Shown piece after piece: positions 1,750 to 21,568 of a stretch of DNA of 21,570 nucleotides. Origin of the DNA: Candidatus Micrarchaeota archaeon (GTDB taxonomy: Archaea > Micrarchaeota > Micrarchaeia > Anstonellales > Bilamarchaeaceae); assembly GCA_040754495.1 (NCBI GenBank), contig JBFMCO010000007.1, positions 1 through 21,570 on the forward strand. Reading direction: 5' to 3'. Numbering within the stretch: position 1 is the stretch's first letter; each line of letters opens with the position of its first letter. Under the pieces are notes generated by a model. The model searched no databases, was not told the origin of the DNA, and was given only the letters and a program-made list of their open reading frames with translations. Both the position numbers and the translations under genes were made by a program.

Positions 1750-1915
1750 GGTTCATCCCCGGGGCGTAATCCTTTCTGCTCGTCGCCGCCTTTTGCAGCC
1801 CCCGGCGAACCGGGCTTCTTCCACCTTCGGGGCTTTCGGACCCGGCAAGGGCCGTGGCCGGTGGGGTAGCACTCGCCCGGCCGGGGCTGGGCGATGCGGT
1901 TTCCGGGGATGAACC
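1750..1915. ncRNA. Unassigned GC-rich structured element (candidate ncRNA or MITE-like)
   Basis: A perfect 13-bp closing inverted repeat (GGTTCATCCCCGG 1750-1762 / CCGGGGATGAACC 1903-1915) encloses several internal helices. It is fully intergenic, and no family was recognised. Confidence 0.5.
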
Positions 1916-1922
1916 ACACGTG

Positions 1923-1930
1923 AATATAAG
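1923..1930 (+). promoter_or_regulatory. Archaeal TATA-like box for the surface-protein gene
   Basis: AATATAAG ends 22 nt before ATG 1953. Confidence 0.5.
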
Positions 1931-1952
1931 ATATCCCATGATATTCCTAGCC

Positions 1953-4900
1953 ATGAAACCCGGAACGTTCGTTCTTTCCCTCCTGGCGTTTTTGTCAATC
2001 GGATTCGCGGTGCCGGTCTCGTCCTGCAGCGAGATAACTTCGCCTGGGACGTACGACCTCACATCAGATGTCAGCGGAGAGCCCTATCCGGTCTCGCTGC
2101 CGTATGGGGGGAACGCCTGCTTCAGGATCGATTCTTCAGACGTCATTCTCGACTGCCACGGATTCGACTTGGTGGGCACGTATGTATACGGCAACTCATA
2201 CGGGGTCGCCGTAGAATCCCCCCTTTCGAATGTGGAGATACGGAACTGCGACATAACCCAATACGTATATGGAATTTTCTCAGACGTTTCCACGTCCTTG
2301 GTCGTGACGAACAACTCCATCCACGACAATCAAATCGGAGCCCAGCTGGAATCCTGTTCCAACTGCAGCGTGGAGGGCAACACTTTCCTTGACAATATCG
2401 GCAACAACCAGATATACGCGGAGCACGGGTCTGGAAACAACTTCACTGCAAACAGCATAACCCTTTCAACCCCTTCGGCATGGGCTGACGGGATGCAGTT
2501 TTATGACGAGTCATTCGACATCGTCCTCCTTAACAACATTAGTTTCATGGGCAGGGGCATCAATGTCAATTCCGCCTGCAGTAACATGACCTTCATCGGA
2601 AACAACGCCAGCAACAATTCACAGTATGGATTGGAGCTCGGGTTCAGCACAAACGGCACGGTCCGGGACAATCTTTTTCAGGATAACGGCCTCGTAGACA
2701 TATACCTTGTCGGACAGGACTGCTCAGATGTCATCGTAAATAACACAGGTTCCCGGGACATGCCGATATATTACAACAACAGCGCCGTCCTCCTCCAGGA
2801 CTCCGAGTTCTCGGAACTCATGCTGTGCGGCCATGGGGCGGACGGTTCCTCGCTCCAGAACGTCACGGTGCACGGCTCGGATAGCGTCTACAACAATGGG
2901 GCCTTCTTCAATAACGTGGATTATCTCGTGGTGAACAACTCCGAATCGTCCAACAACGCCTACGGTTTCCAGTGCTGGGGATGCAATTACGCTATATTCA
3001 CGAACGACACGGCCGACTACAATTACGCGCTCGAATACTACCAGCCCCGAGGCTTCGGATTCAGCATCGGCGACAGCCGGTATGGCTTTTTCGACAATCT
3101 CAGTGCATACGGGAACAACCAATATGGTTTCGTGATCCCGGACACCGATTCCGGTGGGCACACGGTGAGCAATTCTATTTTCCAGGAGAACCAGGAACTG
3201 GATTTCATGGCTTGGCCGACGTATCCGGAGTATTACTGCGATTATATTATAAGCAACATTACGGTTTCAGGCGACATGCCACTCGATTACTACAACGAAA
3301 GCGTGGTTCTCAGCGACATCACATCGCCGGAGATCCTGCTTTGCGGAACAGGCGCCAGCGGCTCGAACCTCACCAACATCACGCTGAGCGGCTCCCCGGA
3401 CGTGGGCAACAACGCCATAGTGCTCATGTTTGTCAACGATACCAGCATCAGCAATTCCGAATCGTCATGGAACTATTACGGCGTATATGCCTGGGGAGGA
3501 AAAAACATCGAGATATCCAACACGACCGCTTCATACAACGGCCTGGCGGGTTTCCAGATATATTATTCTGAGAATGCCCGCATCTTGGACAGCACCGCCG
3601 CAAGCGAACAGTACGGCGTGTACCTGAATGGTGCGGGCAACGCCACCGTAAGCAACAATACCATGCCCCTGGATTCATTCGGGGTGATGGCCGTTGGCGG
3701 ACCAAATACCACTATCATCAACAACAACATAACGGACAGCGGATATTCCATCATGCTGGGGTCGACTTCCGGAGGCAACGTTTCCGGGAATTCGATCGCC
3801 ACCGCGTACGGCTCGTGTATCTACGTCTATGACATAACCGGTGCCGGCATCTCCAATAACAGCGCCGACAACTGCTCGTCCTATGCCGGGGCATACGGCG
3901 CCATCTATCTCGGATATAACTCGAACGGCAACACCATCACGGATAATGCGCTCTCGGGAAGCAATTACGGCGTTTCGTTGGAGACTTATTTCACAGGGAA
4001 CAACAGCATCAGCCGGAACAGCATCCGCAACAACAGCGTCGGGGTCTATGCACAGTCTGGTGTGCACGACAATGACGTCTTCAACAACAGCATCGCCAAC
4101 AATTCCCAGTATGGCGTCTCGCTCAGCTACGCAGGGACGGGCAACCTCTTTCGCGGAAACGACATGGCCGGAAATCTCCTGCGCGGCTTCGACCTCGGAT
4201 ACAGCTCTGGCAACAACTTCACCGGGAATCGGATTTCCGGCTCCAGCTCCGGCTTTTCCATCGTCTCATCAAACCTTAACCATCTGTCCGGCAACGCCAT
4301 CGCTGACGTATGGACGGGGATAGATATATCCGCCGCATCTTCCGGCAACGTGCTCCAGTCGAGCAACATCACCCGGAGCAGCGCTTATGCCTTGTCGCTG
4401 TCGAATTCGGCCGGTACGAACATCTCTGACCTGCACTTCTACAACAACAGCATCGATATGAGGGTGCTGGGCCCCAATGTCACGTTCAACTCCTCTGGAG
4501 TCATATTCGACAACCCGTACGGAAATATCACCAATTATACGAACCTGTCTCTTTACGATTCCGCGGGACCTGAGGGCTACGTCCTTCTGTGGTCGCCAAG
4601 CCCGGCGCCCCTCCCGGAGAACCTGACCAGCTTCAACCAGAAATTCGTAGAGATATCAGCTTTCTCCGGGACGCCCACCCTAGACAGCCTCACCTGGCAC
4701 TGGGATGACTCCGAGCTCGCGGGATTCAACGAATCCAGGCTGGACCTCTGGGGGTATTCCTCCGGATGGTACAATGTCACGAGCGCGTCCCTTGATGAAG
4801 CCGCGAATGCCATTCATGTGACGGCCCTCGATCCAGCCAGCGTCTACGCCATCGTGCAGGATGAGCGGTTGTCCACGCCACCGCCAGAGGGGCCCCCAAG

Positions 4901-5900
4901 CGGGGATCAGGACAGGCGCGAAAGCCTCGATGCATCCGTCGATTCCTCCTGCGAGATGAACTCCGTAGAGGTCACCAGCGGCGATACCCCTGTTTCCGGC
5001 TCGCTGGTCATAGTTACAGACCGGAGCGGAAGCGTACTGGCATCAGGCTCCACGGACGGTTACGGAAGGTTCGGGTTCGGCGGCTGCGGAAAAAACGTTT
5101 CTTTGCATGCAAGCAAGTCCGGCTATCTGCCAGCCAGTGCCGAAGGGGCCCTGGTAAGCTGCTCGCAATGCGCTCTGCCTGAATGCTCTTCCGACAGCGA
5201 GTGCGATGCCGGACGCTGCAGCGACGGCAAGTGCACGGCCGGGCCGGGACCCGTGCCGCCCCCCGGACAGCAATGCACCGCGCCAGCATGCTGCGTTTCG
5301 GATTCGCAGTGCGCCGACAGCCAGGCCTGCCTCGGTGCCAATGATTCGGCCGGAACAAGCGCCTCGCCAGGCTCGTGCAAGGCATTGACCGGCTGCGGGC
5401 ATGTTGAAGGGCACAAGCTCGCCCCGTATGAATGCGGCCCTGAGGCAGGATGCCCGAGCTGCTCGGAGGGCTTCACCTGCGTGGAGCACAAGTGCGTGCA
5501 GAACGACATATCCTGCCCCACTACGGGCATAGTCGGCGACGAGAAGACCTGTGCTGCGACCGAGAACGGCCAGGCCTGCGCGAACTGCGACTTCGAGGTC
5601 ACCGACCCCTCGGGCAAGAAGTCCCGCGGAAGGACCGACGAGGAGGGCAACTTCAACCTGCCGCTCAACCTGGAGGGCACATACAAGGTGGCGCTGCTCA
5701 AGGACGGCAAGGTGATAAAGACCATAGATGTCAAGGCCTTCCCGCAGGCAGCCCCTGAGCAGCCCGAGAAGCCCCCGACGGCCGGCACAGACGCGTTCCC
5801 GCTCCTGTGGCTGGTGGTTCTGGTGCTCCTGGTCATGGGCGCAATTTTCTACTGGAGACGCCGGGGGCAGAAAAAGAAAGACACCGGAAAGAATGGATAG
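1953..5900 (+). CDS. Large cell-surface protein with NosD/parallel beta-helix repeats, Cys-rich and Ig-like modules and a C-terminal TM anchor
   Basis: It starts with a signal peptide (MKPGTFVLSLLAFLSIGFA). PbH1-like repeats follow (NNxIxxNxxGI-type) with many N-x-S/T sequons. Cys-rich CxxDxxC modules precede a hydrophobic helix (FPLLWLVVLVLLVMGAIFYW) and a basic tail (RRRGQKKK). Start 1953 (or 1938) is preferred over 1854. Confidence 0.88.
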   Translation: MKPGTFVLSLLAFLSIGFAVPVSSCSEITSPGTYDLTSDVSGEPYPVSLPYGGNACFRIDSSDVILDCHGFDLVGTYVYGNSYGVAVESPLSNVEIRNCDITQYVYGIFSDVSTSLVVTNNSIHDNQIGAQLESCSNCSVEGNTFLDNIGNNQIYAEHGSGNNFTANSITLSTPSAWADGMQFYDESFDIVLLNNISFMGRGINVNSACSNMTFIGNNASNNSQYGLELGFSTNGTVRDNLFQDNGLVDIYLVGQDCSDVIVNNTGSRDMPIYYNNSAVLLQDSEFSELMLCGHGADGSSLQNVTVHGSDSVYNNGAFFNNVDYLVVNNSESSNNAYGFQCWGCNYAIFTNDTADYNYALEYYQPRGFGFSIGDSRYGFFDNLSAYGNNQYGFVIPDTDSGGHTVSNSIFQENQELDFMAWPTYPEYYCDYIISNITVSGDMPLDYYNESVVLSDITSPEILLCGTGASGSNLTNITLSGSPDVGNNAIVLMFVNDTSISNSESSWNYYGVYAWGGKNIEISNTTASYNGLAGFQIYYSENARILDSTAASEQYGVYLNGAGNATVSNNTMPLDSFGVMAVGGPNTTIINNNITDSGYSIMLGSTSGGNVSGNSIATAYGSCIYVYDITGAGISNNSADNCSSYAGAYGAIYLGYNSNGNTITDNALSGSNYGVSLETYFTGNNSISRNSIRNNSVGVYAQSGVHDNDVFNNSIANNSQYGVSLSYAGTGNLFRGNDMAGNLLRGFDLGYSSGNNFTGNRISGSSSGFSIVSSNLNHLSGNAIADVWTGIDISAASSGNVLQSSNITRSSAYALSLSNSAGTNISDLHFYNNSIDMRVLGPNVTFNSSGVIFDNPYGNITNYTNLSLYDSAGPEGYVLLWSPSPAPLPENLTSFNQKFVEISAFSGTPTLDSLTWHWDDSELAGFNESRLDLWGYSSGWYNVTSASLDEAANAIHVTALDPASVYAIVQDERLSTPPPEGPPSGDQDRRESLDASVDSSCEMNSVEVTSGDTPVSGSLVIVTDRSGSVLASGSTDGYGRFGFGGCGKNVSLHASKSGYLPASAEGALVSCSQCALPECSSDSECDAGRCSDGKCTAGPGPVPPPGQQCTAPACCVSDSQCADSQACLGANDSAGTSASPGSCKALTGCGHVEGHKLAPYECGPEAGCPSCSEGFTCVEHKCVQNDISCPTTGIVGDEKTCAATENGQACANCDFEVTDPSGKKSRGRTDEEGNFNLPLNLEGTYKVALLKDGKVIKTIDVKAFPQAAPEQPEKPPTAGTDAFPLLWLVVLVLLVMGAIFYWRRRGQKKKDTGKNG
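2718..3482 (+). repeat. Internal ~172-aa tandem duplication within the beta-helix protein
   Basis: DCSDVIVNNTGSRDMPIYYNNSAVLLQDSEFSELMLCGHGADGSSLQNVTVHGS...NSESSNNAYG (from 2718) aligns with YCDYIISNITVSGDMPLDYYNESVVLSDITSPEILLCGTGASGSNLTNITLSGS...NSESSWNYYG (from 3234), an offset of 516 nt. Confidence 0.8.
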
Positions 5901-8030: not shown

Positions 8031-9254
8031 TCACGTCTCGACCGCGATTACCTCGCCGGTCTCTATGTCTATGAAGACGTCCGTCTCGGGACCGCTGTCG
8101 GCAGCGACCTCCACCACGTAAACAAGCCTGCCGGATTTCCTTTCGATGGATATGCTGGTAACCTCGCCGGAGACTTCAGCGAGCGCGATTGCCTTCGCCT
8201 CGTCCTCCGTGATGTTGCCGACAAGCCCGCCAGGCTCCTCAGGGGCGGAGGGAGACGGCTCGGCGCCATATTCCACGCTGATGAGCCTTGTCGTCTCGTT
8301 GTCCTCAAGGACGACCTCCATAGCCACACCGCCAGGGCCGGCGCAGTAGTATTTGTGCTCCTTTGCCGACAAATCAAGCGGAGTCCAGTCATAGGTCTTG
8401 AGGCAGCCCGTGAAGCTTCCGTATGGGACGGAGACGGATTCGCTCACCGAAAGCACGTCCGCCATGTCTTCGGCTTCGCCCGCGAAATATTCCTGCCGGT
8501 AAGAATCGCCCGGAACCGGTGCGGCCTTCATGATTATCCCCGGCTTCGCCCCGTCCACGCCGGCTTCCCATGAGCCCGCGGTGCTGACCACCATGCCTCC
8601 GGCCAGCTCTTTTGTCTCCTCGCCGAAATACCATACGTTGCCTTCCTTGTCCTGCGCATACCAGTCCAGGGTGTCCTCTACTAGCTCCCCATCCAGCCAG
8701 ACGCGGTCCCAGACCACGATGGTCTCGACGCCCTGGACGGTCTTTGTCGCGTTCATCACGTACACTTCAATCCGCTCCGTCCCGTCCTGGGTTTCCCCTT
8801 CGTAGACCATCTTCTTGCGCGGCGTGAGCGAGAAATATTTGTTGGTGACGTTTGCCGTAAAGTCGGCCGGAGTTATCAGGGGCGAGTAGGTGGCGTTGGT
8901 TCCGTTCCGTGGCGGAGTCGCATTTGAGGGCGGCGTTTCGACAGGGACTCCAACGCAGCGGCTGTTCTCGCATTTCCCCGTGCTTTCGATTGTTGCACAT
9001 TCGCAGACAGGGTCGACCGTGCAATCGGGCGCCTTCTGGCTGTATTTGTTGACATATACTCCGAGGCCGCAGTCGCAGCACCGGTTCAGGCGCACGCAGT
9101 CGCTGTCGGTTTTGCAGTAATCCGCGACCTCGTAGCCCGGAGGGATTGATACATTCGTTGCGTTGGCCTGGTTAGTCGCGTTCTGGCCCGGCGGGGACTG
9201 CACGCATGCGGCTGCAATGAGCAGGATTCCGAGCAGTATCGCGGGTTTTGTCAT
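8031..9254 (-). CDS. Putative lipoprotein: Cys-rich module, uncharacterised beta-rich domain and C-terminal PepSY domain
   Basis: A signal peptide with lipobox-like IAAAC is followed by a Cys-rich segment (YCKTDSDC...CCDC...CENSRC). The central domain has NKYFSLTP and EDTLDWYAQDKEGNVWYFGE. The C-terminus is PepSY-like (ITEDEAKAIAL...VYVVEV...DVFIDIETGEVI). Confidence 0.78.
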   Translation of the reverse strand: MTKPAILLGILLIAAACVQSPPGQNATNQANATNVSIPPGYEVADYCKTDSDCVRLNRCCDCGLGVYVNKYSQKAPDCTVDPVCECATIESTGKCENSRCVGVPVETPPSNATPPRNGTNATYSPLITPADFTANVTNKYFSLTPRKKMVYEGETQDGTERIEVYVMNATKTVQGVETIVVWDRVWLDGELVEDTLDWYAQDKEGNVWYFGEETKELAGGMVVSTAGSWEAGVDGAKPGIIMKAAPVPGDSYRQEYFAGEAEDMADVLSVSESVSVPYGSFTGCLKTYDWTPLDLSAKEHKYYCAGPGGVAMEVVLEDNETTRLISVEYGAEPSPSAPEEPGGLVGNITEDEAKAIALAEVSGEVTSISIERKSGRLVYVVEVAADSGPETDVFIDIETGEVIAVET

Positions 9255-9291
9255 TCTTACACCGCAGGTGATTCCAATGCAGGATTTATAA

Positions 9292-9311
9292 GATTTAGGC
9301 TCGCCTAAATC
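9292..9311. promoter_or_regulatory. Perfect 8-bp palindrome next to the lipoprotein TATA box
   Basis: GATTTAGG-CTCG-CCTAAATC adjoins TTTATAAG (9285-9292; CTTATAAA on the minus strand), about 31 nt before ATG 9254. Confidence 0.4.
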
Positions 9312-9385
9312 GGGTGCATGGACGGCCTGGAACTGCCGGGGGCAGGTTCCGGCACCCCTAAAAACCCACCCTGATTATGCATAGC

Positions 9386-9514
9386 ATGGCGGAATGTTTT
9401 CTCTGCCACGTGCAGAGCGACACCAGAAGGGTGTTCATGGGAAGCGCCAGGGGGTTCGCGGACCTCTGTTTCGACTGCACCCTCCGTTTCTATAAGATAG
9501 GTAGGGAGGAGTGA
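9386..9514 (+). CDS. Putative 42-aa CxxC...CxxC zinc-finger microprotein (not in the ORF track)
   Basis: ATG 9386 to TGA 9514 reads MAECFLCHVQSDTRRVFMGSARGFADLCFDCTLRFYKIGREE. It has two CxxC pairs and fills an otherwise empty intergenic gap. Confidence 0.55.
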   Translation: MAECFLCHVQSDTRRVFMGSARGFADLCFDCTLRFYKIGREE

Positions 9515-9582
9515 GTTGGAAGCGGCCTGGCAGTTCCCCGTCGCCCAGTGCTATTTTTAACGCGCGCCGCATAATCAGACGC

Positions 9583-10161
9583 ATGACAGGGCTCCCGGAG
9601 GCTTTCATCCTCCTTCTCGGCATAATCGACCCGCTGACAAGCGTGGCGGCTTTCATGTCCCTTTCCAAAGGGATGGACGAGGGCGAGAAGAGGAAGGTCG
9701 CGCTGAAAGCCGTCCTCGTCGCAGCCGCGGTCTTCTACCTTTTCACGTTCGGGGGCGAGCCCATCATGAGGCTGCTCGGGGTGAGCATAGAGAGCTTCAG
9801 GGCGGCAGGCGGCATAATCCTTATCCTCCTTGGCGTGCAGATGAGCCTCGGCATATCGTTCCCGAAAGAGAAGGAGGAGGTGAGCGAGATTGCGGTGGTC
9901 CTCGCGACGCCGCTAATCAGCGGGCCGGCCACCATCACGACCGCGATAATACTTGCTAGCGACGCAGGCCTCATGGTAACCACGATAGCCGGCGCTGCGG
10001 CCCTCCTTATGACCCTGCTCGCGCTCGTGTTCGCCGGAACCCTGAACAGGCTGGTCGGGCGCTCGGGCGTGCAGATTATGTCCACGATGATGGGAATAGT
10101 GACTATTGCATGGGGCCTGCAGTTCCTGCTGACCGGGATGCACGCTTTCGAGCCGGCCTAA
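9583..10161 (+). CDS. marC: MarC family integral membrane protein
   Basis: Motifs: IIDPLTSVAAFMSL, LLGVSIESFRAAGGIIL, ATPLISGPATITT. TTTTTAA at 9554-9560 supports start 9583 over 9511. Confidence 0.9.
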   Translation: MTGLPEAFILLLGIIDPLTSVAAFMSLSKGMDEGEKRKVALKAVLVAAAVFYLFTFGGEPIMRLLGVSIESFRAAGGIILILLGVQMSLGISFPKEKEEVSEIAVVLATPLISGPATITTAIILASDAGLMVTTIAGAAALLMTLLALVFAGTLNRLVGRSGVQIMSTMMGIVTIAWGLQFLLTGMHAFEPA

Positions 10162-15044: not shown

Positions 15045-17444
15045 ATGGCGGAGCTGGACATAGAATCCATAGGCCCGAAACTGAAGGGAATAAAGCTCAG
15101 CCAGCTCCAGCCGGAGCTTATCGACGCGGTCCTGGAGCTTGCCGGCGAGCACGGCTACGAAGTCACCATCACCTCTTCGAGCAACCTCGAGTTCCTGTTC
15201 AAGATTTACCAGGCCGAGAAGGCGAAGGAGAAGGGGAAGCGCAGGTCGCTTGAGAAAGCCGAGAATATCATCCTCACCATCGCTGGCGTCTTCTCGCTCC
15301 ACCACGACACCGTCATTGCGGAGCAGAAGGGGAAGCGGGAGGAGCGCAAGCGCAGGGCGCATTACGATGCGATGGGGGAGGACATGCGCCTCAGCAGGCG
15401 GATGCGCGAGCTTTTCGAATCCATAGGGATAGACAACGAGAAGGAGATGCAGCGCTCGGTTGCGCTTCTTGGCGAGGAAAAAATCGAGGAGCGGGTCGGG
15501 CTTGCGAGGGCGAGCAGGCTCGGAGATGCGCTTGTCCGGGGCGTTTTCGGGGAGAACCCGGAGCTGATTCGCATCGTGAGGGACGAGGAGTTCAGCGCGG
15601 CGCTCTCGGCGATGGAGGGCAAGAAGGATTTCATAGACGCGTGGAAGGAGGCGAACAGGAAGCTTCCCCTGTGGGCTGATTACAGCGTTTCCCCGAGCGT
15701 CCTGCTTGCTGATTACAAGGTGCTCCATGGCGGCCTCGGCGAGGCGGCCGTCCCGCTGGGGGGAAGTGCCTCGCACGGGGAGAAGACAGTCCCAGGAAGG
15801 CCGTCTGCAATCGAAGCCTCGGGCGGAGCAGCGAGGGCCGAAGTGCCGCAAAAAGAGCCGGACCTCGGCGCGCTCGACTCGCTCGCCCATCCGGCGGCGG
15901 CGCGGGCCAGGGAGGCGTACGAGAGGCACGGCGGGGGCGTCGAGGGGAAGCTTGCCGCGCTTGCGGAACTCGGGATAGACATATCCGAGCTGAGCACAGA
16001 GCGGGAGAGCATAAGCGAGGATACGGACCCGGAGAGCCGCTCGAAGGAGCAGGCGAAGTTCGATTCATCCATATCGCTCTTTTTCGGGATTGTGGTCGGC
16101 GGAGGCCTCCAGAATCTCCTTGGAAAGAGCCTCGGGGCCGATGACGCGAGGATTAGCAACGTGAAATACCTTCCCGGGGCGGCCGGCGCCTTCGAGCTGG
16201 AGCTTTCCGGCGGGAGCATGAAAAAGGCCTACCTGAGCCTCCAGGACATGGAGCCCGCGCAGATAGGCCGGGAGGCGGTCGTGGCCGCGGGCATGGCGGC
16301 TTATCGCATATGGACCAGGGGGGAGGACGGCGAGAGGCTGTCCGCAGGAGGCATGCAGTACGCAGTTTCCGAGGATGCGAGGGAGCTCGGGAGGCGCGGG
16401 AGGATTACGCTCAGGATGCCGGACCTGGGGAGCGAGAGCGTAGAGACCATGGGCGCAGCCATGTTCAGGGAGGACCTCGTGCTCAGGCCGGACCCCGGGA
16501 ACGACCTGCATTCGGAGTTTTACAGCGCGCTGGCCGAGCCCGGGGGGAGGGCCCGCGTCCTGAGGGCGCTCCTTGCTTATTTCGAGATGTCGAGAAGGGC
16601 CCTGCTTGCCGACCGCAGGCCGCCGAACACGTGCGTCCTCAGGGTGGCCGGGGCAGGGGGGACGGCGTTCACGTTCCAGCCTACCGACCTTGACGGTGTG
16701 GGGAACTTCATCGACGCGGGCCCTGCCGGGGCCGACTTTTCGGACTTCAACAGGGACTTCCACAAGGCGGCCGCGGATTTCGCGCTCCAGATGCAGGAGG
16801 GGATGACGAGGGCGGCCGCGAGGGGCATCATCAGGAGGGAGGACGTGCCGCCGGCCGGAATGATATTCCGGGAGATATCGGATGCGGCGCGGGAGCCTTT
16901 CCCCCCGGACGGGCCGGAGAGGGTCGCGGAGAGGCGGGGGATATTCATCAGGCACGACGGGAACCCGATTGGCATCGGATTCGACGCCTCATCCGACGTC
17001 GGGCACACGATACCCTCCCACGGCGGGAGGAGCAGGATAGCAGGGCCTGACGGAAGGGTGCTGCTCGATGCCGCGAGGGCTGTCAGGACGGCCGCGGAAG
17101 CCGCGACTGATTCCGCACAGGAGGAATTCCTCTCCGGATTCGCGGCAGGCGGCCTCGCCCAGATGTCCAGGGCCCCGGCCAAGGCCGCGGAGATATGCAT
17201 GGCCATGTCAGAGGCGGAGGGCGCCGAGAAAGCAGAGAGGCTCGAGCGGCTCCGCAGGAGGAGCGGCGGGGAGATTGCCGCAGGGATTTATTCTTCCCCG
17301 GAGTTCACGGATTCCAGGGGCGACCTCAAGCTCCAGGTGGCCGAGAGGATGGCCAGGGAGATTATATTCGCCAGGGGCTTCGCCCTGCCCGCTGCCGGGG
17401 AGCGCGCGGCAAAGGCGCAATCTCATGACGAGCGCACGAAATAG
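15045..17444 (+). CDS. 799-aa protein: uncharacterised N-terminal domain (paralogous to 18014-18982) plus putative HipA/PI3K-like kinase-type region
   Basis: Long ORF with AATATAAA at 15015-15022. Residues 1-~224 align with the 18014 ORF. Later motifs are LPGAAGAF, ALLADRRPPN and FQPTDLD. The CDS is secure; the kinase call is tentative. Confidence 0.75.
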   Translation: MAELDIESIGPKLKGIKLSQLQPELIDAVLELAGEHGYEVTITSSSNLEFLFKIYQAEKAKEKGKRRSLEKAENIILTIAGVFSLHHDTVIAEQKGKREERKRRAHYDAMGEDMRLSRRMRELFESIGIDNEKEMQRSVALLGEEKIEERVGLARASRLGDALVRGVFGENPELIRIVRDEEFSAALSAMEGKKDFIDAWKEANRKLPLWADYSVSPSVLLADYKVLHGGLGEAAVPLGGSASHGEKTVPGRPSAIEASGGAARAEVPQKEPDLGALDSLAHPAAARAREAYERHGGGVEGKLAALAELGIDISELSTERESISEDTDPESRSKEQAKFDSSISLFFGIVVGGGLQNLLGKSLGADDARISNVKYLPGAAGAFELELSGGSMKKAYLSLQDMEPAQIGREAVVAAGMAAYRIWTRGEDGERLSAGGMQYAVSEDARELGRRGRITLRMPDLGSESVETMGAAMFREDLVLRPDPGNDLHSEFYSALAEPGGRARVLRALLAYFEMSRRALLADRRPPNTCVLRVAGAGGTAFTFQPTDLDGVGNFIDAGPAGADFSDFNRDFHKAAADFALQMQEGMTRAAARGIIRREDVPPAGMIFREISDAAREPFPPDGPERVAERRGIFIRHDGNPIGIGFDASSDVGHTIPSHGGRSRIAGPDGRVLLDAARAVRTAAEAATDSAQEEFLSGFAAGGLAQMSRAPAKAAEICMAMSEAEGAEKAERLERLRRRSGGEIAAGIYSSPEFTDSRGDLKLQVAERMAREIIFARGFALPAAGERAAKAQSHDERTK

Positions 17445-17448
17445 GCGC

Positions 17449-17913
17449 TCATATCAGCTTCTGGGTGTCCTCGCCGACCATCACGAATGCGAATTTCCTT
17501 CCTGATTTGCCGGCCTCGGAAGCGCCCCTCAGCGCGCTCCGGATGGATAGGCCCAGCGCATCCCAGTCCGCGGACGGGGCGGCAAGCGAGGAAACCGGAA
17601 CGCTCACCATGATTTTGCGCCTGCTGTCCACGAAAGTGCAGTAGAGCGAGCTGCCCTTCATGGAAAGGTCGATTGCGTAGGCCGGAGGCTTGTCCGGGAG
17701 CGGGAGGCCGAGGAAGAACGAGCCGCTCAGGGTTGATGCCGGGGTCTGGGGGTCGCTTGAGAACGAGATGCGCCTGCCGCCGCCTGCATCGTGCAGCCTG
17801 GGGGGGAGCGCAAGGAGCTTCATCGTGCCCTCGTCCATGGGCCCGAGCCTCGTCAGGGCGTGCAGCACCGACACCCGGCTCATTGCGGATTTTCCGCTTG
17901 ATTCCACCTGCAT
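17449..17913 (-). CDS. Hypothetical protein (154 aa)
   Basis: It fills the gap between the two paralogues. An AT-rich TTTTATT tract lies about 25 nt upstream on the minus strand (17936-17945). No family recognised. Confidence 0.55.
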   Translation of the reverse strand: MQVESSGKSAMSRVSVLHALTRLGPMDEGTMKLLALPPRLHDAGGGRRISFSSDPQTPASTLSGSFFLGLPLPDKPPAYAIDLSMKGSSLYCTFVDSRRKIMVSVPVSSLAAPSADWDALGLSIRSALRGASEAGKSGRKFAFVMVGEDTQKLI

Positions 17914-18013
17914 GCACCCATAGTTGTGCAGAGGCCAATAAAAAACATTAGGGAGGCATGGCCGCAGCGGGGCGTCCCGGAAACATTAAAATCCTCGACT
18001 GCGACATATTAGT

Positions 18014-18982
18014 ATGGACGTGGAAGCGCTTGCGCCGGCCCTCAGGAAGATGAAGGTGGGCGAGCTCGACCCGGAGCTCCGGAGCGAGATTGCCACACTT
18101 GCCCGGGAACTTGGCAGGGGCAGTGCGATAACCGCCTCCAGCAGCCTGCATTTCCTTCTGAAGCTTTACAGGGCGGAGAAGGCGAAGGAGAGGGGGAGGG
18201 AGAAGGCGCTGAAGAGGGCGGAGGAGCTGATTCTGCGGCTCTCCTCTTTACATCACGACATACAGAAGAGGGAAAGCGAAAGGAGGAGGGAGGAGAGGGG
18301 GAGGCGCATCCCGTTTCCCGCCATCCGGGAAAGCGTGATTGTGAGCGGGAAGCTCCGGGAGATGTTCGGGTCCATCGGCATTACCGACGAGGGCGTCATG
18401 GGCAGGGCGGTCGAGCTCCTGGGGGAGGAGAGAGCCGGGGAGAGGGTAGACATGGTGAAGCTCATGGACATCGGACCGGAGCTCACGAAGAGGCTTTTCT
18501 CCGAACACCCGGATACTGTGCTCATACCCAAGGAAGACGACTTCGTCTCCGAACTCGAAGCCATCGAGGCGAAAAAGGGGATGATAGACTCCTGGAGGGA
18601 GGCGAACGGCCGCGAGCCTCCGATGTGGGCTGATTACGACAAGACGCCCGGCATACTCGTGGACACGTACGAGGACATCACGCGGCTGCTGAACCTCGAG
18701 CCGCCTGAGACGGCCGGGGCTGAACAGAAGGAGGCCAGATACCGCGGCAAGCCCATGGACCCGGACGATTTCTCGAGAGTCGTGATGGCCATGGGATTCA
18801 GCGGGGTGAGGGAATCCAAGCACGGAAGGATTCTCAGCGACGGGAAGGGCAATATAATGTGCGTGCAGAGGGCGCACAGGAAGCAGGAGCAGCTCAACCC
18901 GAGCACGATAAAGAAGAAGCTCACAGAGGCCGGCGTGGACCTGGATGAGTTCGAGAAGAAGAGAAGGGAGCTGAAACTGTGA
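18014..18982 (+). CDS. Uncharacterised N-terminal domain fused to a C-terminal HicA-like mRNA-interferase domain
   Basis: The last ~78 aa read PMDPDDFSRVVMAMGFSGVRESKHGRIL...MCVQRAH...LNPSTIKKKLTEAGVDLDEF. This fits the HicA pattern GF..R..GSH...VP.H...L..gTl..IL..AG. A HicB-like gene follows, and ATTAAAAT at 17985-17992 lies upstream. Confidence 0.75.
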   Translation: MDVEALAPALRKMKVGELDPELRSEIATLARELGRGSAITASSSLHFLLKLYRAEKAKERGREKALKRAEELILRLSSLHHDIQKRESERRREERGRRIPFPAIRESVIVSGKLREMFGSIGITDEGVMGRAVELLGEERAGERVDMVKLMDIGPELTKRLFSEHPDTVLIPKEDDFVSELEAIEAKKGMIDSWREANGREPPMWADYDKTPGILVDTYEDITRLLNLEPPETAGAEQKEARYRGKPMDPDDFSRVVMAMGFSGVRESKHGRILSDGKGNIMCVQRAHRKQEQLNPSTIKKKLTEAGVDLDEFEKKRRELKL

Positions 18983-18995
18983 AGGAGGGAAGCGG

Positions 18996-19235
18996 ATGAA
19001 GGAAATAGAAGTGGAAGGATATACGGTCACGATAGAGAGGGCTTTCGGGAGGTTCGTCGTCTCAGTCCCCAAGCTGCCCGGATGCACGGTGCAGGTGGAC
19101 AGGGAGGAGGACGCGGGGAGGGAAATCCGGAAGCAGATGGGGATGTACTTCTCCGAGCTGGCCTCGAAGAAGCCAAAAGAGAAGCCAGGCGGGGATGAGC
19201 GGAGCACGAGGGCGACCGTGAAAATCAGGAAGTGA
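18996..19235 (+). CDS. hicB: HicB-like antitoxin (RNase H-like fold, no obvious HTH/RHH)
   Basis: Reads YTVTIERAFGRFVVSVPKLPGCTVQVDREEDAGREIRKQMGMYF, matching the HicB V.VP.LPGC motif. A GGAGG Shine-Dalgarno lies upstream. Confidence 0.82.
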   Translation: MKEIEVEGYTVTIERAFGRFVVSVPKLPGCTVQVDREEDAGREIRKQMGMYFSELASKKPKEKPGGDERSTRATVKIRK

Positions 19236-19239
19236 TGCG

Positions 19240-19803
19240 ATGGTCCTCGCGCCATCGAGCTACAAGGTGCTGCATAAGGGGAGCCCTGCGCCGGAATTCA
19301 GGCTGAAGGGCATCGACGGCAAGGAGCATAGCCTCGCGGAATTCAAGGGGAAAAAAGCCCTGCTCGTAATTTTCATGTGCAACCACTGCCCGTACGTCCA
19401 GCCCAAGATGCCGTATTTCGCAGAGCTGCAGAGGAGATACGGGCCTCTGGGCCTGCAGGTTGTCGGCATCAACTCCAACGACGCGAGGAAATACCCGGAA
19501 GACGGCCCGGAGAAGATGGCGCAATACGCTGCGAGGTTCGGGTTCGGCTTCCCGTATCTTGTCGATGAGGCGCAGGAAGCGGCGAGGGCGTATGGCGCCG
19601 AGTGCACGCCCGACCCGTTCCTGTTCGATAGCTCGCTCGCGCTCGCCTACCATGGAAGGTTCGACGATGCGCATGGCCGGCCGCATTCGGATGGCAAGAC
19701 CGCGGAGATGGAGGAGGCCATAAAGCAGGTGCTCTCAGGAGCCGCGGTCACCGTGGAGACGCTGCCCTCGATGGGATGCAGCATCAAGTGGAAGGGCAGG
19801 TGA
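19240..19803 (+). CDS. AhpC/TSA-redoxin (thioredoxin-fold) family protein
   Basis: Motifs: APEFRLKGIDGKEHSL, FMCNHCPYV, GINSND, FPYLVDEAQEAARAYGAECTPDPFLF, YHGRFDD, MGCSIKW. Confidence 0.92.
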   Translation: MVLAPSSYKVLHKGSPAPEFRLKGIDGKEHSLAEFKGKKALLVIFMCNHCPYVQPKMPYFAELQRRYGPLGLQVVGINSNDARKYPEDGPEKMAQYAARFGFGFPYLVDEAQEAARAYGAECTPDPFLFDSSLALAYHGRFDDAHGRPHSDGKTAEMEEAIKQVLSGAAVTVETLPSMGCSIKWKGR

Positions 19804-19836
19804 AGGTTTTTAACCGCTTCATACATTATCTAACAC

Positions 19837-20556
19837 ATGACTGACGCACAGCCCAGCCTGAGGCAGACTCCGGTGCCCGATAGAGCCAGGGCTGCGAATG
19901 GCAAGTCCTATATCCGGCGCCTCATTCCGGGCATGGACAGGTGGATGAGCAGGCGCGAGCTGAGGGCCGGGCTTCTTGCGGAGTCCATGGAGCTGGAAGG
20001 CCGGGCGGAGGCATGGGAGAGGCGCGGCCACTGGGAGATGGCTGCCAAATGCACGGAGATGGCGGCCGAGCCGGTGAGGAAGCTTCTGGACATCGAACTG
20101 CGCAGGGAGTTCATGGACAGGTACGCTCAGCTTCTCAAGGACGCGACGGTCAGGTATTCCCTGGAACTCGGCGAAGCCGCGAGATACGACCCTGCGATTT
20201 TCTTCAGGATGTCGAAGCTGGCCGCAAGGATGGGGGATGTCGCGAGGACGAGGACGAATTACGAGCGGATGCTGAAGGGATTCGAGCTGATGGTAAGCGA
20301 CCCGATGCTGGACAGCCTAGTCACGCTCAACAGGATGAAGAGGAGATTCCTTGCAGCCCTCTGGGAAGGCGGGCAGGACGAGGCATGCAGGCTCGCCGCT
20401 AATGCGCTCGAGGCTGCTGCAATGGTGAGGGCGCCGGGGACGGACAGGCGCCCTGACACGGCGCGGTGGCTCGAGAGGCAGTTCGAGGAGAGATACGGGG
20501 ACGCGTATCCGCTGCGGTGCGCGCTCTATGGCGGGAGCGTAGTCAGCCGTCCATGA
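19837..20556 (+). CDS. Hypothetical, mostly helical protein (239 aa)
   Basis: TTTTTAA at 19807-19813 lies upstream, and codon usage is GC-rich like its neighbours. No family recognised. Confidence 0.6.
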   Translation: MTDAQPSLRQTPVPDRARAANGKSYIRRLIPGMDRWMSRRELRAGLLAESMELEGRAEAWERRGHWEMAAKCTEMAAEPVRKLLDIELRREFMDRYAQLLKDATVRYSLELGEAARYDPAIFFRMSKLAARMGDVARTRTNYERMLKGFELMVSDPMLDSLVTLNRMKRRFLAALWEGGQDEACRLAANALEAAAMVRAPGTDRRPDTARWLERQFEERYGDAYPLRCALYGGSVVSRP

Positions 20557-21568
20557 ACGACCAGAAGACGTAGTCGAAGATTTTTCTCCTGATTCCCTTC
20601 CTCGGGTCCTTGAGTATCCAGTTTATCATCCAGCAGAACGGAAGCCGTGTGTCCGTAGCAAGCTTGTATATCCGGACCTGCCACTTGTGGGCGCTTGCGA
20701 GGCGCTCCATAATGCGCCTGCCCTCCGGGTCGCCGCGGATGTGCCTCGCGACGCCCTCGCCGCTCTTTATCGCATAGTAGATGCCTTCCGTGGTCAGGGG
20801 GTTCAGGAATCCGCCCGCATCCCCCACCAGGTAGACGTTGTCGAAGCGCCAGCCGCGGTAATCCGCGTTTCCTTTCATCGCCTCGGACGTGAGCTTCTTC
20901 GTGTCTATTCCGAACGTCTCGCCGAGCCAGGCCTTCGCCCGCGCCGCAGTCGCATGGTCGAACTCCTCACCGCACCAGGCGAGGCCAATCATGGTCTGGC
21001 CGCGGCTCTTGGACATCATGTATCCGTAGCCGGCCGGGAAGCTTTTCGGGAGCCAGTACATCTGGAACTCCGGGCATGGCTTGTCGTCGAGGTAATGGAA
21101 TGCCCATCCGGAGATGTCCTTGACCGGGAGCTTGAGGTGCCTGCGCACCGCCGAGAAGGAGCCGTCGGCGCCGACAAGGTGCTTGTAGGCGTATTTCCCC
21201 TTTGACGTCTCGACGTGCGTGGGCGTGATTTTCGTTACGGGCTCGGAGAAGCGGATGTCCGCTTCGCAGTGATTCATGATGTAGCTCTCGAGTTCATAGC
21301 GGCCGACCGTCCACAGGTAAGGGCGCCCGAACTTCAGGACCTGTTTCGAGTCGTCGGTGCCGACGCTGATTTCGGTCCATGGGTGGCCGCGGTCGAACTT
21401 CTCGCCCGGAAAAACCTTCGGGGAGATTTCGCCGGAGCAGATTTTCTTTCCCACCCGCTCGTTTTTCTCAAGGACCAAAACCCTTAACCCTGAACCAGAC
21501 AGGTATCTTGCGCACGAGAGCCCGCCCGGCCCGCCGCCTATTATCACGACATCGTAAGAATCAGCCAT
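20543..21568 (-). CDS. Geranylgeranyl-reductase-family FAD-dependent oxidoreductase
   Basis: Motifs: Rossmann VVIIGGGPGG, EK...KICSGEIS, LVGADGSFSAVRR, YLVGDAGGFLNPLTTEGIYYAIKSG. Confidence 0.88.
   Translation of the reverse strand: MADSYDVVIIGGGPGGLSCARYLSGSGLRVLVLEKNERVGKKICSGEISPKVFPGEKFDRGHPWTEISVGTDDSKQVLKFGRPYLWTVGRYELESYIMNHCEADIRFSEPVTKITPTHVETSKGKYAYKHLVGADGSFSAVRRHLKLPVKDISGWAFHYLDDKPCPEFQMYWLPKSFPAGYGYMMSKSRGQTMIGLAWCGEEFDHATAARAKAWLGETFGIDTKKLTSEAMKGNADYRGWRFDNVYLVGDAGGFLNPLTTEGIYYAIKSGEGVARHIRGDPEGRRIMERLASAHKWQVRIYKLATDTRLPFCWMINWILKDPRKGIRRKIFDYVFWSFMDG

What the first reader, a model, noticed from the sequence alone, without database searches (positions are those of the whole stretch)
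18014..19235. HicA-like toxin fused to a large N-terminal domain
Canonical HicA is a free ~60-90-aa protein. Here it forms the last quarter of a 322-aa ORF, keeps the His of the GSH-equivalent (ESKH) and the VPxH-equivalent (VQRAH), and is followed by a short HicB lacking an obvious DNA-binding domain. An in-frame ATG at 18755 could also yield a free 75-aa HicA. The N-terminal domain may gate or localise the RNase (inference).
Basis: partly seen in the sequence, partly recalled or inferred. Interest (0 to 1): 0.75.

Follow-up and report, generated by a model that had tools for sequence, protein, structure and literature searches.

The report
HicA RNase fused to new archaeal domain
In a small group of tiny symbiotic archaea (Micrarchaeota), a HicA toxin-type RNA-cutting domain is permanently joined to a previously undescribed 230-residue helical domain and is always followed by a stripped-down HicB partner gene, an unusual form of a well-known toxin-antitoxin pair whose added domain has no known function.

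Summary
ORF 18014-18982 (322 aa) ends in a genuine HicA-fold domain (residues 244-322; Z 10.5, rmsd 1.8 A over 70 residues to 1WHZ; Z 7.1-7.6 to three solved HicA toxins). It keeps the family's catalytic His (H270, in the beta1-beta2 turn). The next ORF (18996-19235) is a HicB-like N-domain with only a basic tail.

The fusion is not an artefact. About 45 cluster representatives of ~320 aa share it, all from one Micrarchaeota lineage. Among ~128 Pfam HicA matches in 201 genomes of the phylum, the only frames over 151 aa belong to this family.

The N-terminal 228 residues fold confidently (pLDDT 91.6) into two helical lobes with no Pfam or convincing PDB match. The same domain heads the upstream 799-aa paralogue, and its lobes occur separately on other proteins.

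The pair is accessory: found in 12 of 37 genomes of the family, with an empty site in a congener.

The HicB-like gene follows the N-domain even where the HicA part has lost its His or is absent. The internal ATG is not conserved.

Best reading: a lineage-specific HicAB variant whose RNase is tethered to a new regulatory or adaptor domain.

The parts
17985..17992 (+). A/T-rich TATA-like box (ATTAAAAT) about 26 nt upstream of the ATG; probable promoter of a leaderless transcript
   Evidence: Seen directly in the sequence. A comparable A/T box lies at the same distance in orthologues L008, L004, L006 and L010. That it acts as a promoter is inferred.
18014..18982 (+). 322-aa ORF: N-domain fused to a HicA-fold domain (end includes the stop codon)
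   Evidence: ORF list. 30 homologues of 307-334 aa at 37-89% identity. Alignment A1.
18014..18301 (+). N-domain lobe A (residues 1-96): helices 3-12, 20-32, 46-57 and a long basic helix 63-96
   Evidence: Model m19cbf324bf7d, pLDDT 91.6. pI 9.9. The lobe occurs alone on beta-carbonic-anhydrase-like proteins P0093 and P0102.
18335..18697 (+). N-domain lobe B (residues 108-228): acidic helical lobe with invariant G122 and near-invariant I123 and R144 (SIGITDE motif)
   Evidence: Model blocks at pLDDT 97-98. Conservation. The lobe occurs alone in the sigma-70-like protein P0089 and in P0101. Only weak, recurring mTERF matches.
18698..18742 (+). Variable, low-confidence linker (residues 229-243)
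   Evidence: pLDDT below 50 at residues 230-241. Length and sequence vary in A1.
18743..18979 (+). HicA-fold (dsRBD-like) domain, residues 244-322, plus an extra C-terminal helix 310-319
   Evidence: Z 10.5 to 1WHZ; Z 7.1-7.6 to HicA toxins 6G26, 5YRZ, 4P78.
18821..18823 (+). Codon of His270, the equivalent of the catalytic His of HicA, in the beta1-beta2 turn
   Evidence: Aligned to the GGH His of 1WHZ. Strands 263-268 and 271-275. The role of this His in HicA comes from PMC6159526 and PMC11594946.
18875..18877 (+). Codon of His288, invariant in A1; the equivalent of the second conserved His of HicA (PxH)
18983..18988 (+). Shine-Dalgarno-like AGGAGG, 7 nt before the start of the HicB-like ORF
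   Evidence: Seen directly in the sequence. In L004 and L006 the two genes instead overlap by 4 nt.
18996..19235 (+). 79-aa HicB-like protein: HicB N-terminal domain (residues ~1-55) plus a basic tail; no RHH or HTH domain
15045..17444 (+). 799-aa paralogue with the same N-domain (43% identity over 223 aa) and an unrelated ~570-aa C-terminal region
   Evidence: It lies in a separate transcription unit, because a conserved 154-aa gene sits between them on the minus strand.

Best explanation
The ORF encodes one polypeptide with three parts: a previously undescribed two-lobed helical N-domain (residues 1-228), a flexible linker, and a HicA-type RNase domain (244-322). The RNase domain keeps the single catalytic His of the family. 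It is transcribed from its own promoter, probably as a leaderless message, and is translationally linked to a minimal HicB-like protein.

The pair is an accessory, vertically inherited but often lost module of one family-level lineage of Micrarchaeota.

The most likely mechanism is partly inferred. The HicB-like protein binds and masks the HicA face around His270, as in solved HicAB complexes. The N-domain holds, targets or regulates the RNase: it may sense a trigger, bind nucleic acid, or dock to a partner such as the large paralogue through the shared domain. This would take over the regulatory part that a DNA-binding HicB normally supplies. When the block is released, the tethered HicA domain cleaves RNA and arrests growth.

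Shown here: the architecture, the fold, residue conservation, gene linkage and phyletic pattern. Inferred: RNase activity, neutralisation by the HicB-like protein, and any role of the N-domain.
For: HicA identity:
- HicA fold, with His270 in the beta1-beta2 turn.
- This His is the one residue shown to be essential in HicA toxins (PMC6159526; PMC11594946).

Linkage to the HicB-like gene:
- Toxin-first order, with an SD 7 nt before the HicB-like start.
- 4-nt overlaps in L004 and L006.
- A HicB-like ORF lies directly downstream in 12 of 13 loci read.

The fusion is real and unusual:
- The N-domain profile finds 77 cluster representatives among 1.84 billion proteins, about 45 of them ~320 aa.
- All other PF07927 matches in 201 genomes of the phylum lie in open frames of 39-151 aa. 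The only longer ones (339, 327, 312 aa) belong to this family.

Accessory, TA-like distribution:
- Found in 15 of 201 genomes of the phylum, 12 of 37 in the family and 6 of 11 in the genus.
- In the congener G089 (94% complete) the CoA-binding gene abuts AhpC, with nothing between them.

Other points:
- The N-domain folds confidently (pLDDT 91.6).
- A TATA-like box about 26 nt before ATG 18014 is conserved in orthologues.
Against: - No RNase activity or toxicity has been shown for any member.
- The window's own sequence does not reach any curated HicA or HicB threshold.
- His270 is Glu in about 12 of 61 family members, and both His are lost in a clade of six. Two diverged N-domain-only proteins have no HicA part. 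Yet the HicB-like gene persists in all loci of these kinds that were read. That is unexpected if HicB's only job is to neutralise an RNase.
- Synteny is stable across genera, and there are no PADLOC hits. Neither suggests a mobile defence island.
- The Gly of the canonical G-S-H motif is Ser, Ala or Thr here.
Confidence: 0.5

Rival explanations
1. Domesticated module. The conserved functional core is the N-domain protein plus the HicB-like protein. The HicA part serves mainly as a dsRBD-like RNA-binding or protein-docking appendage that can be inactivated or lost. The pair is then a non-toxic RNA- or nucleic-acid-associated regulator specific to this lineage.
For: - The HicB-like gene follows the N-domain in the Glu-type, degenerate and N-domain-only forms.
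- The N-only proteins P0074 and P0084 are diverged from each other yet both keep the partner.
- The chromosomal neighbourhood is stable: CoA-binding gene, AhpC, FAD oxidoreductase.
- There is a precedent in DPANN: TA-derived MNT-HEPN genes in a housekeeping context (PMC6393860).
- Lobe B gives weak, recurring matches to the nucleic-acid-binding mTERF repeats and occurs at the N-terminus of a sigma-70-like protein.
Against: - The window's clade keeps both His, and the HicA domain is well conserved.
- The pair is missing from most genomes of the same family and from half of the genus, with a clean empty site, so it is dispensable.
- The mTERF matches are all within the noise range for helical proteins (Z at most 5.7).
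Confidence: 0.3
2. Polymorphic-effector system. The N-domain is a shared delivery or anchoring module that carries interchangeable C-terminal effectors (HicA RNase, the ~570-aa region of the 799-aa paralogue, others). These would be used in conflicts with the host archaeon or competitors, with the HicB-like protein as immunity protein.
For: - The same N-domain sits on unrelated C-termini. The window's 799-aa protein and the syntenic 770-aa protein of L004 share 51% identity over residues 1-231 and nothing detectable after that.
- Further architectures of 498, 929, 1180 and 1636 aa exist.
- On the N-domain tree the His- and Glu-type HicA parts are not clustered.
Against: - No hydrophobic segment is evident by eye in the N-domain (no signal-peptide or transmembrane predictor was run), and no secretion genes were noted nearby.
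- The large paralogues are not followed by an immunity-like gene.
- The tree is too poorly resolved to show domain swapping: starred branches force only one change.
- The HicB-like gene persists without any effector part.
Confidence: 0.08
3. The biologically relevant product is a free ~75-aa HicA made from the internal ATG at 18755. The upstream 247 codons would be a separate or regulatory reading frame.
For: - Met248 is present in 17 of 20 aligned relatives and sits where a free HicA would start.
- One short metagenomic contig (L038) has the N-domain and the HicA part as two ORFs, split by a 1-nt frame change in the linker.
Against: - Met248 is Ile (ATC) in L009 and Leu (CTA) in L010.
- There is no well-placed SD: AAGGAGG lies 20 nt upstream in the window only.
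- The frame is open and conserved across the linker in about 45 cluster representatives.
- L038 is a single 1.2-kb assembly and may carry an error.
Confidence: 0.05

Closest known systems
HicA toxins of type II HicAB systems (PF07927; structures 1WHZ, 4P78, 6G26, 5YRZ)
   Same: - dsRBD-like alpha-beta-beta-beta-alpha fold.
- Catalytic His in the beta1-beta2 turn, and a second conserved His.
- Toxin gene placed before the hicB-like gene.
- Patchy, accessory distribution.
   Different: - It is the C-terminal quarter of a 322-aa protein rather than a free 60-90-aa protein.
- The Gly of G-S-H is replaced by Ser, Ala or Thr.
- It has an extra C-terminal helix (310-319).
- The window's sequence is below Pfam detection.
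- Subclades replace the catalytic His by Glu or lose the domain.
HicB antitoxins, in particular short DBD-less HicB/UPF0150 proteins such as TTHA1756 (2YZT)
   Same: - N-terminal HicB-like domain with the LPGC motif.
- Position directly after the HicA-bearing gene.
- HicB proteins without a DNA-binding domain are described as common (PMC11594946).
   Different: - It ends in a short basic tail instead of an RHH or HTH domain.
- It co-occurs with the N-domain even when no HicA part is present.
MNT-HEPN fusion of DPANN archaea (cls.004259, Makarova et al. 2019, PMC6393860)
   Same: A toxin-antitoxin-derived RNase module, fused into a larger protein and sitting in a non-mobile context in DPANN genomes.
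   Different: - Different toxin family.
- That gene is widely conserved in DPANN, whereas this pair is confined to one family-level lineage and often absent there.
mTERF helical repeats
   Same: Lobe B (residues 105-217) gives recurring weak structural matches to MTERF1, MTERF3 and MTERF4 and to a mitoribosomal protein. One family member gives a weak Pfam mTERF hit.
   Different: - All scores are in the noise range for helical proteins: Z 4.4-5.7; Foldseek probability at most 0.41; Pfam E 0.05.
- There are at most two repeat-like units.
- This is a lead only.

Membership tests
HicA (PF07927, HicA_toxin) | dsRBD-like alpha-beta-beta-beta-alpha fold | tested here: met
   DSSP of the model: H250-259, E263-268, E271-275, E281-285, H296-305. 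VIA Z 10.5 with rmsd 1.8 A over 70 aa to 1WHZ; Z 7.1-7.6 to 6G26_E, 5YRZ_D and 4P78_D. Foldseek target-normalised TM 0.78-0.81.
HicA (PF07927, HicA_toxin) | Conserved catalytic His in the turn between beta1 and beta2 | tested here: met
   H270 aligns with the GGH His of 1WHZ and lies between strands 263-268 and 271-275. It is near-invariant in A1. In the wider family it is Glu in about 12 of 61 members and absent in a clade of six.
HicA (PF07927, HicA_toxin) | Sequence match to the curated family model at its gathering score | tested here: not met
   The window's protein and its isolated C-terminal 75-85 aa give no PF07927 hit up to E 10, and no NCBIfam hit. By contrast, 6 of 20 relatives hit PF07927 (best E 5.5e-7), orthologues in G118 and G106 exceed the cut-off, and the family profile finds 1WHZ at E 2.3e-3.
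HicA (PF07927, HicA_toxin) | Small stand-alone protein (about 60-100 aa) | tested here: not met
   Here it is residues 244-322 of a 322-aa ORF. Free HicA frames in the same phylum are 39-151 aa.
HicA (PF07927, HicA_toxin) | Ribonuclease activity and toxicity on expression | not testable with these tools
   Needs expression and RNase assays.
HicB (PF15919, HicB_lk_antitox) | HicB N-terminal domain encoded directly downstream of hicA | tested here: inconclusive
   PF15919 at E 2.3e-3, 18.5 bits against a cut-off of 27. 5 of 10 orthologues hit it, best E 9.2e-5. The profile finds 2YZT at E 0.01. The position and the LPGC motif fit. The protein was not folded.
HicB (PF15919, HicB_lk_antitox) | C-terminal RHH or HTH DNA-binding domain | tested here: not met
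   Only a 24-residue K/R-rich tail follows residue 55, and there is no Pfam DNA-binding hit. DBD-less HicB proteins are described as common (PMC11594946), so this does not exclude membership.
Type II toxin-antitoxin module | Two tightly linked genes with a patchy, dispensable distribution | tested here: met
   SD-coupled or overlapping genes. Found in 12 of 37 genomes of the family and 6 of 11 of the genus. Empty site in G089.
Type II toxin-antitoxin module | Antitoxin binds and neutralises the toxin; autoregulation of the operon | not testable with these tools
   No operator-like palindrome was seen in 17880-18030. Binding needs experiment.
Polymorphic toxin systems | Conserved N-terminal module with interchangeable C-terminal effector domains | tested here: inconclusive
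   The N-domain occurs on unrelated C-termini. No export signal or secretion context was examined with a tool, and the tree does not resolve swapping.
mTERF repeat proteins | Tandem three-helix mTERF motifs detectable by fold or profile | tested here: inconclusive
   3M66_A Z 4.5; 3N6S_A Z 4.4; 8A22_Xb Z 5.7. 7OF3_G Foldseek probability 0.41. One of 49 members hits PF02536 at E 0.05.

The most novel reading that the evidence does not exclude
The N-domain protein and the HicB-like protein may be the conserved core of a new, lineage-specific two-gene system. In it, a previously undescribed bipartite adaptor or sensor domain carries swappable C-terminal effectors: an active HicA RNase, a Glu-variant HicA, a degenerate HicA, none at all, or large unrelated regions in the paralogues. 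The two lobes of this domain also travel separately onto beta-carbonic anhydrases, a sigma-70-like factor and other HicA domains. The HicB-like partner would act on the N-domain and not, or not only, on HicA.
Probability: 0.25. Interest if true: 0.7.

Novelty: new variant of a known kind. Interest (0 to 1): 0.5.

Why it matters
HicA toxins are treated as minimal, free, single-domain RNases. Their control is thought to lie wholly in HicB, through binding and promoter repression.

Here the RNase is permanently tethered to a large domain found nowhere outside a narrow DPANN lineage, while HicB has been reduced to its toxin-binding half. If the N-domain regulates or targets the RNase, this would be a different control logic for a classic toxin family.

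It would also be a rare functional handle on the genomic dark matter of Micrarchaeota, which are uncultivated, host-dependent archaea. The persistence of the HicB-like gene beside N-domain proteins that lack HicA raises a further question: whether HicB-fold proteins have partners other than HicA.

Tried and rejected
- **Complex prediction** of the HicA domain (A1, residues 242-322) with the HicB-like protein (A4): score 0.01, no verdict. This is neither for nor against binding.
- **Curated family scans of the window's own proteins.** Pfam, NCBIfam and PADLOC gave nothing for the 322-aa protein.
- **Fold of the N-domain.** With the full model and with a dedicated high-confidence model I ran VIA-align against 48,161 PDB representatives (best Z 5.8), Foldseek against PDB (no E at or below 0.001), ESM Atlas by shape (TM at most 0.33 by query) and Atlas by features (no usable hit). 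No convincing match, which does not prove the fold is new.
- **An RHH-like reading** of residues 38-96 (strand, helix, helix), considered by eye. No RHH structure appeared among the fold matches, so I dropped it.
The family profile against PDB sequences found no kinase at E up to 1, and Pfam found none.
- **Operator search upstream of 18014.** Only an 8-nt direct repeat and a weak 12-nt inverted repeat that spans the start codon.
- **Tree test for swapping of His-type and Glu-type HicA parts.** The labels are scattered, but the tree is too poorly resolved to exclude a single origin. The careful tree search did not finish in the time allowed.
- **The sigma-70-like protein P0089.** Its contig DNA could not be fetched.

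Full report
**1. What is in the sequence**

ORF 18014-18982 (+) encodes 322 aa, and ORF 18996-19235 (+) encodes 79 aa.
- An AGGAGG at 18983-18988 lies 7 nt before the second start.
- An A/T-rich ATTAAAAT box at 17985-17992 lies about 26 nt before the first ATG. A comparable box sits at the same distance in orthologues. This is the spacing expected for an archaeal TATA box on a leaderless message (inference).
- The long ORF on the opposite strand (18248-19255) has no support and is taken as a shadow frame of this G+C-rich DNA.

**2. Is the C-terminus HicA?**

The window's protein gives no Pfam or NCBIfam HicA hit, whole or cut to the last 75-85 residues, even at E 10. The call rests on three other lines.
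- **Relatives.** A search of 5.8 billion proteins returned 30 homologues of 307-334 aa (one of 498 aa), at 37-89% identity, named where named as Micrarchaeota or Bilamarchaeum. Six of 20 aligned members hit PF07927, best E 5.5e-7.
- **Profile.** The family profile finds the Thermus HicA-family structure 1WHZ at E 2.3e-3. H270 sits on its GGH histidine and H288 on its second histidine.
- **Structure.** The AlphaFold model (pLDDT 78) has helix 250-259, strands 263-268, 271-275 and 281-285, and helix 296-305. This part matches 1WHZ at Z 10.5 (rmsd 1.8 A, 70 residues). It matches the HicA toxins of Burkholderia (6G26_E, Z 7.6), Streptococcus (5YRZ_D, Z 7.2) and Yersinia (4P78_D, Z 7.1), clearly above everything else (Foldseek).

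In characterised HicA toxins a single conserved His in the beta1-beta2 turn is essential for RNase activity and toxicity (PMC6159526; PMC11594946). H270 is that residue.

**3. The downstream ORF**

It is HicB-like at sub-threshold level.
- PF15919 at E 2.3e-3, 18.5 bits against a cut-off of 27.
- Five of ten orthologues hit the same model.
- The profile finds the short HicB-family protein 2YZT at E 0.01.

The alignment shows the typical VEGY...VPxLPGC core of about 55 residues. A variable K/R-rich tail follows, and there is no RHH or HTH domain. In L004 and L006 the two genes overlap by 4 nt.

**4. The fusion is real and unusual**
- A profile of the N-terminal 228 residues, scored against 1.84 billion cluster representatives, found only 77 proteins. 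About 45 are ~320 aa with the same architecture.
- A scan of 201 genomes of the phylum with PF07927 found about 128 matches in 74 genomes. All lie in open frames of 39-151 aa except three of 339, 327 and 312 aa, which are members of this family.
- No free PF07927 gene was found in the window's own genome, which is 80% complete.

**5. The N-domain**

Folded alone with 49 sequences, it gives a confident model (pLDDT 91.6).
- **Lobe A** (residues 1-96): basic, pI 9.9, ending in a long charged helix 63-96.
- A low-confidence loop follows.
- **Lobe B** (residues 108-228): acidic, pI 4.5, with G122 invariant and I123 and R144 nearly so, in an SIGITDE motif.

No library gave a convincing match.
- Best VIA Z is 5.8, within the noise stated for helical proteins.
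- Foldseek gave no E at or below 0.001.
- The Atlas gave nothing.
- Pfam on all 49 members gave only scattered weak hits.

The one recurring theme is mTERF repeats for lobe B: 3M66, 3N6S, 7OF3_G, 8A22_Xb, and one Pfam hit at E 0.05. This is a lead only.

The lobes are separable modules.
- Lobe A alone heads ~430-470-aa proteins with a beta-carbonic-anhydrase domain (P0093, P0102).
- Lobe B alone occurs at the N-terminus of a sigma-70-like protein (P0089, E 1.9e-12).
- Lobe B also occurs in P0101 before what looks by eye like a HicA-type C-terminus with an SGH motif; Pfam does not detect it.

**6. The paralogue**

The upstream 799-aa ORF (15045-17444) shares the N-domain: 43% identity over 223 residues, E 4e-55. 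It then continues with ~570 residues that have no Pfam or PDB-sequence match.
- A conserved 154-aa gene on the other strand separates the two, so they are separate transcription units.
- On a quick tree, the N-domains of the large paralogues form one clade (SH-aLRT 100) nested among the HicA-bearing forms. This points to one duplication.
- At the syntenic position in Bilamarchaeum (L004), the 770-aa protein shares 51% identity over residues 1-231 and nothing detectable afterwards. It has a weak PADLOC HicA-like hit at residues 249-285.
- Several genomes carry the 322-type gene and the HicB-like gene without any large paralogue.

**7. Distribution and context**

The family profile matched 15 of 201 genomes of the phylum: 12 of 37 in the window's family and 6 of 11 in its genus.
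- Where present, the pair usually sits between a CoA-binding-domain gene and AhpC and/or an FAD oxidoreductase.
- In the congener G089 (94% complete) the CoA-binding gene is followed directly by AhpC.
- The pair is therefore vertically inherited but dispensable, which fits an accessory TA-like module.

**8. What complicates the simple toxin-antitoxin reading**

Across 61 family members of 280-360 aa:
- His270 is kept in the window's clade.
- It is Glu in about 12 members, which still hit PF07927 weakly.
- Both His are gone in a well-supported clade of six.

Three cluster representatives are N-domain-only proteins of 217-254 aa. A HicB-like ORF lies immediately downstream in 12 of 13 loci read. 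These include loci of the Glu type (L010, L012), the degenerate type (L014, L016) and two diverged N-only proteins (L032, L036). The constant pair is thus the N-domain plus the HicB-like gene, and the HicA part is variable.

**9. The internal start**
- Met248 is ATC in L009 and CTA in L010.
- The window's AAGGAGG lies 20 nt upstream of it and is not conserved.
- One short contig (L038) has the two parts in separate frames, through a 1-nt change in the linker. This may be an assembly error.

A conserved free HicA product is therefore unlikely.

**10. Verdict**

This is a lineage-specific variant of the HicAB pair. An intact-looking HicA RNase domain is tethered to a new two-lobed domain and paired with a minimal HicB.
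- **Most likely working (confidence 0.5):** HicB-like masking of the His270 face, with the N-domain supplying regulation or targeting.
- **Main rival (0.3):** a domesticated N-domain/HicB-like core in which HicA is an optional RNA-binding or effector part.
- **Class:** new variant of a known kind. The N-domain itself appears undescribed.

I tested and confirmed its shared-domain claim. Its kinase idea for the paralogue (e1-5723390) found no support at sequence level.

Noticed in passing
window 17449-17913 (-): A 154-aa ORF between the 799-aa and 322-aa genes is a real conserved gene: 44% identity (E 8e-38) to a 148-aa gene at the same place in L006. It has no Pfam hit and its function is unknown.
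   Followed up: partly
window 15045-17444 (+) and L004:5655-7967: The large paralogues at the same chromosomal position share only the N-domain (51% identity over residues 1-231), and their ~540-570-aa C-terminal regions are unrelated. The L004 protein has a weak HicA-like PADLOC hit at residues 249-285. The earlier HipA/PI3K-kinase idea for the 799-aa protein found no support in a profile search of PDB sequences; the protein was not folded.
   Followed up: partly
L033 (G169:C8, ORF 8347-9666), P0093, P0102: Lobe A of the N-domain alone is fused to a beta-carbonic-anhydrase (Pro_CA) domain in ~430-470-aa Micrarchaeota proteins.
   Followed up: partly
P0089 (410 aa, ENA metagenome contig of 2.3 kb): Lobe B, with the same SIGITD motif, forms the N-terminus of a protein with Sigma70_r2 and r4 domains. 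The organism is unknown and the DNA could not be fetched.
   Followed up: partly
L038:381-1177: A 1.2-kb metagenomic contig carries the N-domain (230 aa, then a stop) and the HicA part as separate ORFs, through a 1-nt frame change in the linker. This is either a natural split form or an assembly error.
   Followed up: partly
L024 (G089:C15) 8516-9477: A genome of the same genus has the CoA-binding gene directly followed by AhpC, an empty site for the paralogue/HicA-fusion/HicB-like cassette.
   Followed up: yes
window 19240-20556 (+) and 20543-21568 (-): AhpC/Redoxin peroxiredoxin starts 5 nt after the HicB-like stop, so it is possibly co-transcribed. A conserved 239-aa protein of unknown function follows, with a convergent 341-aa FAD-dependent oxidoreductase. 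This block is syntenic in L004 and L006.
   Followed up: partly
window 1854-5900 (+); 8031-9254 (-): A 1348-aa protein with Beta_helix/NosD repeats and a CarboxypepD_reg domain, and a 407-aa protein ending in a PepSY domain. Both are probably surface or secreted proteins.
   Followed up: no
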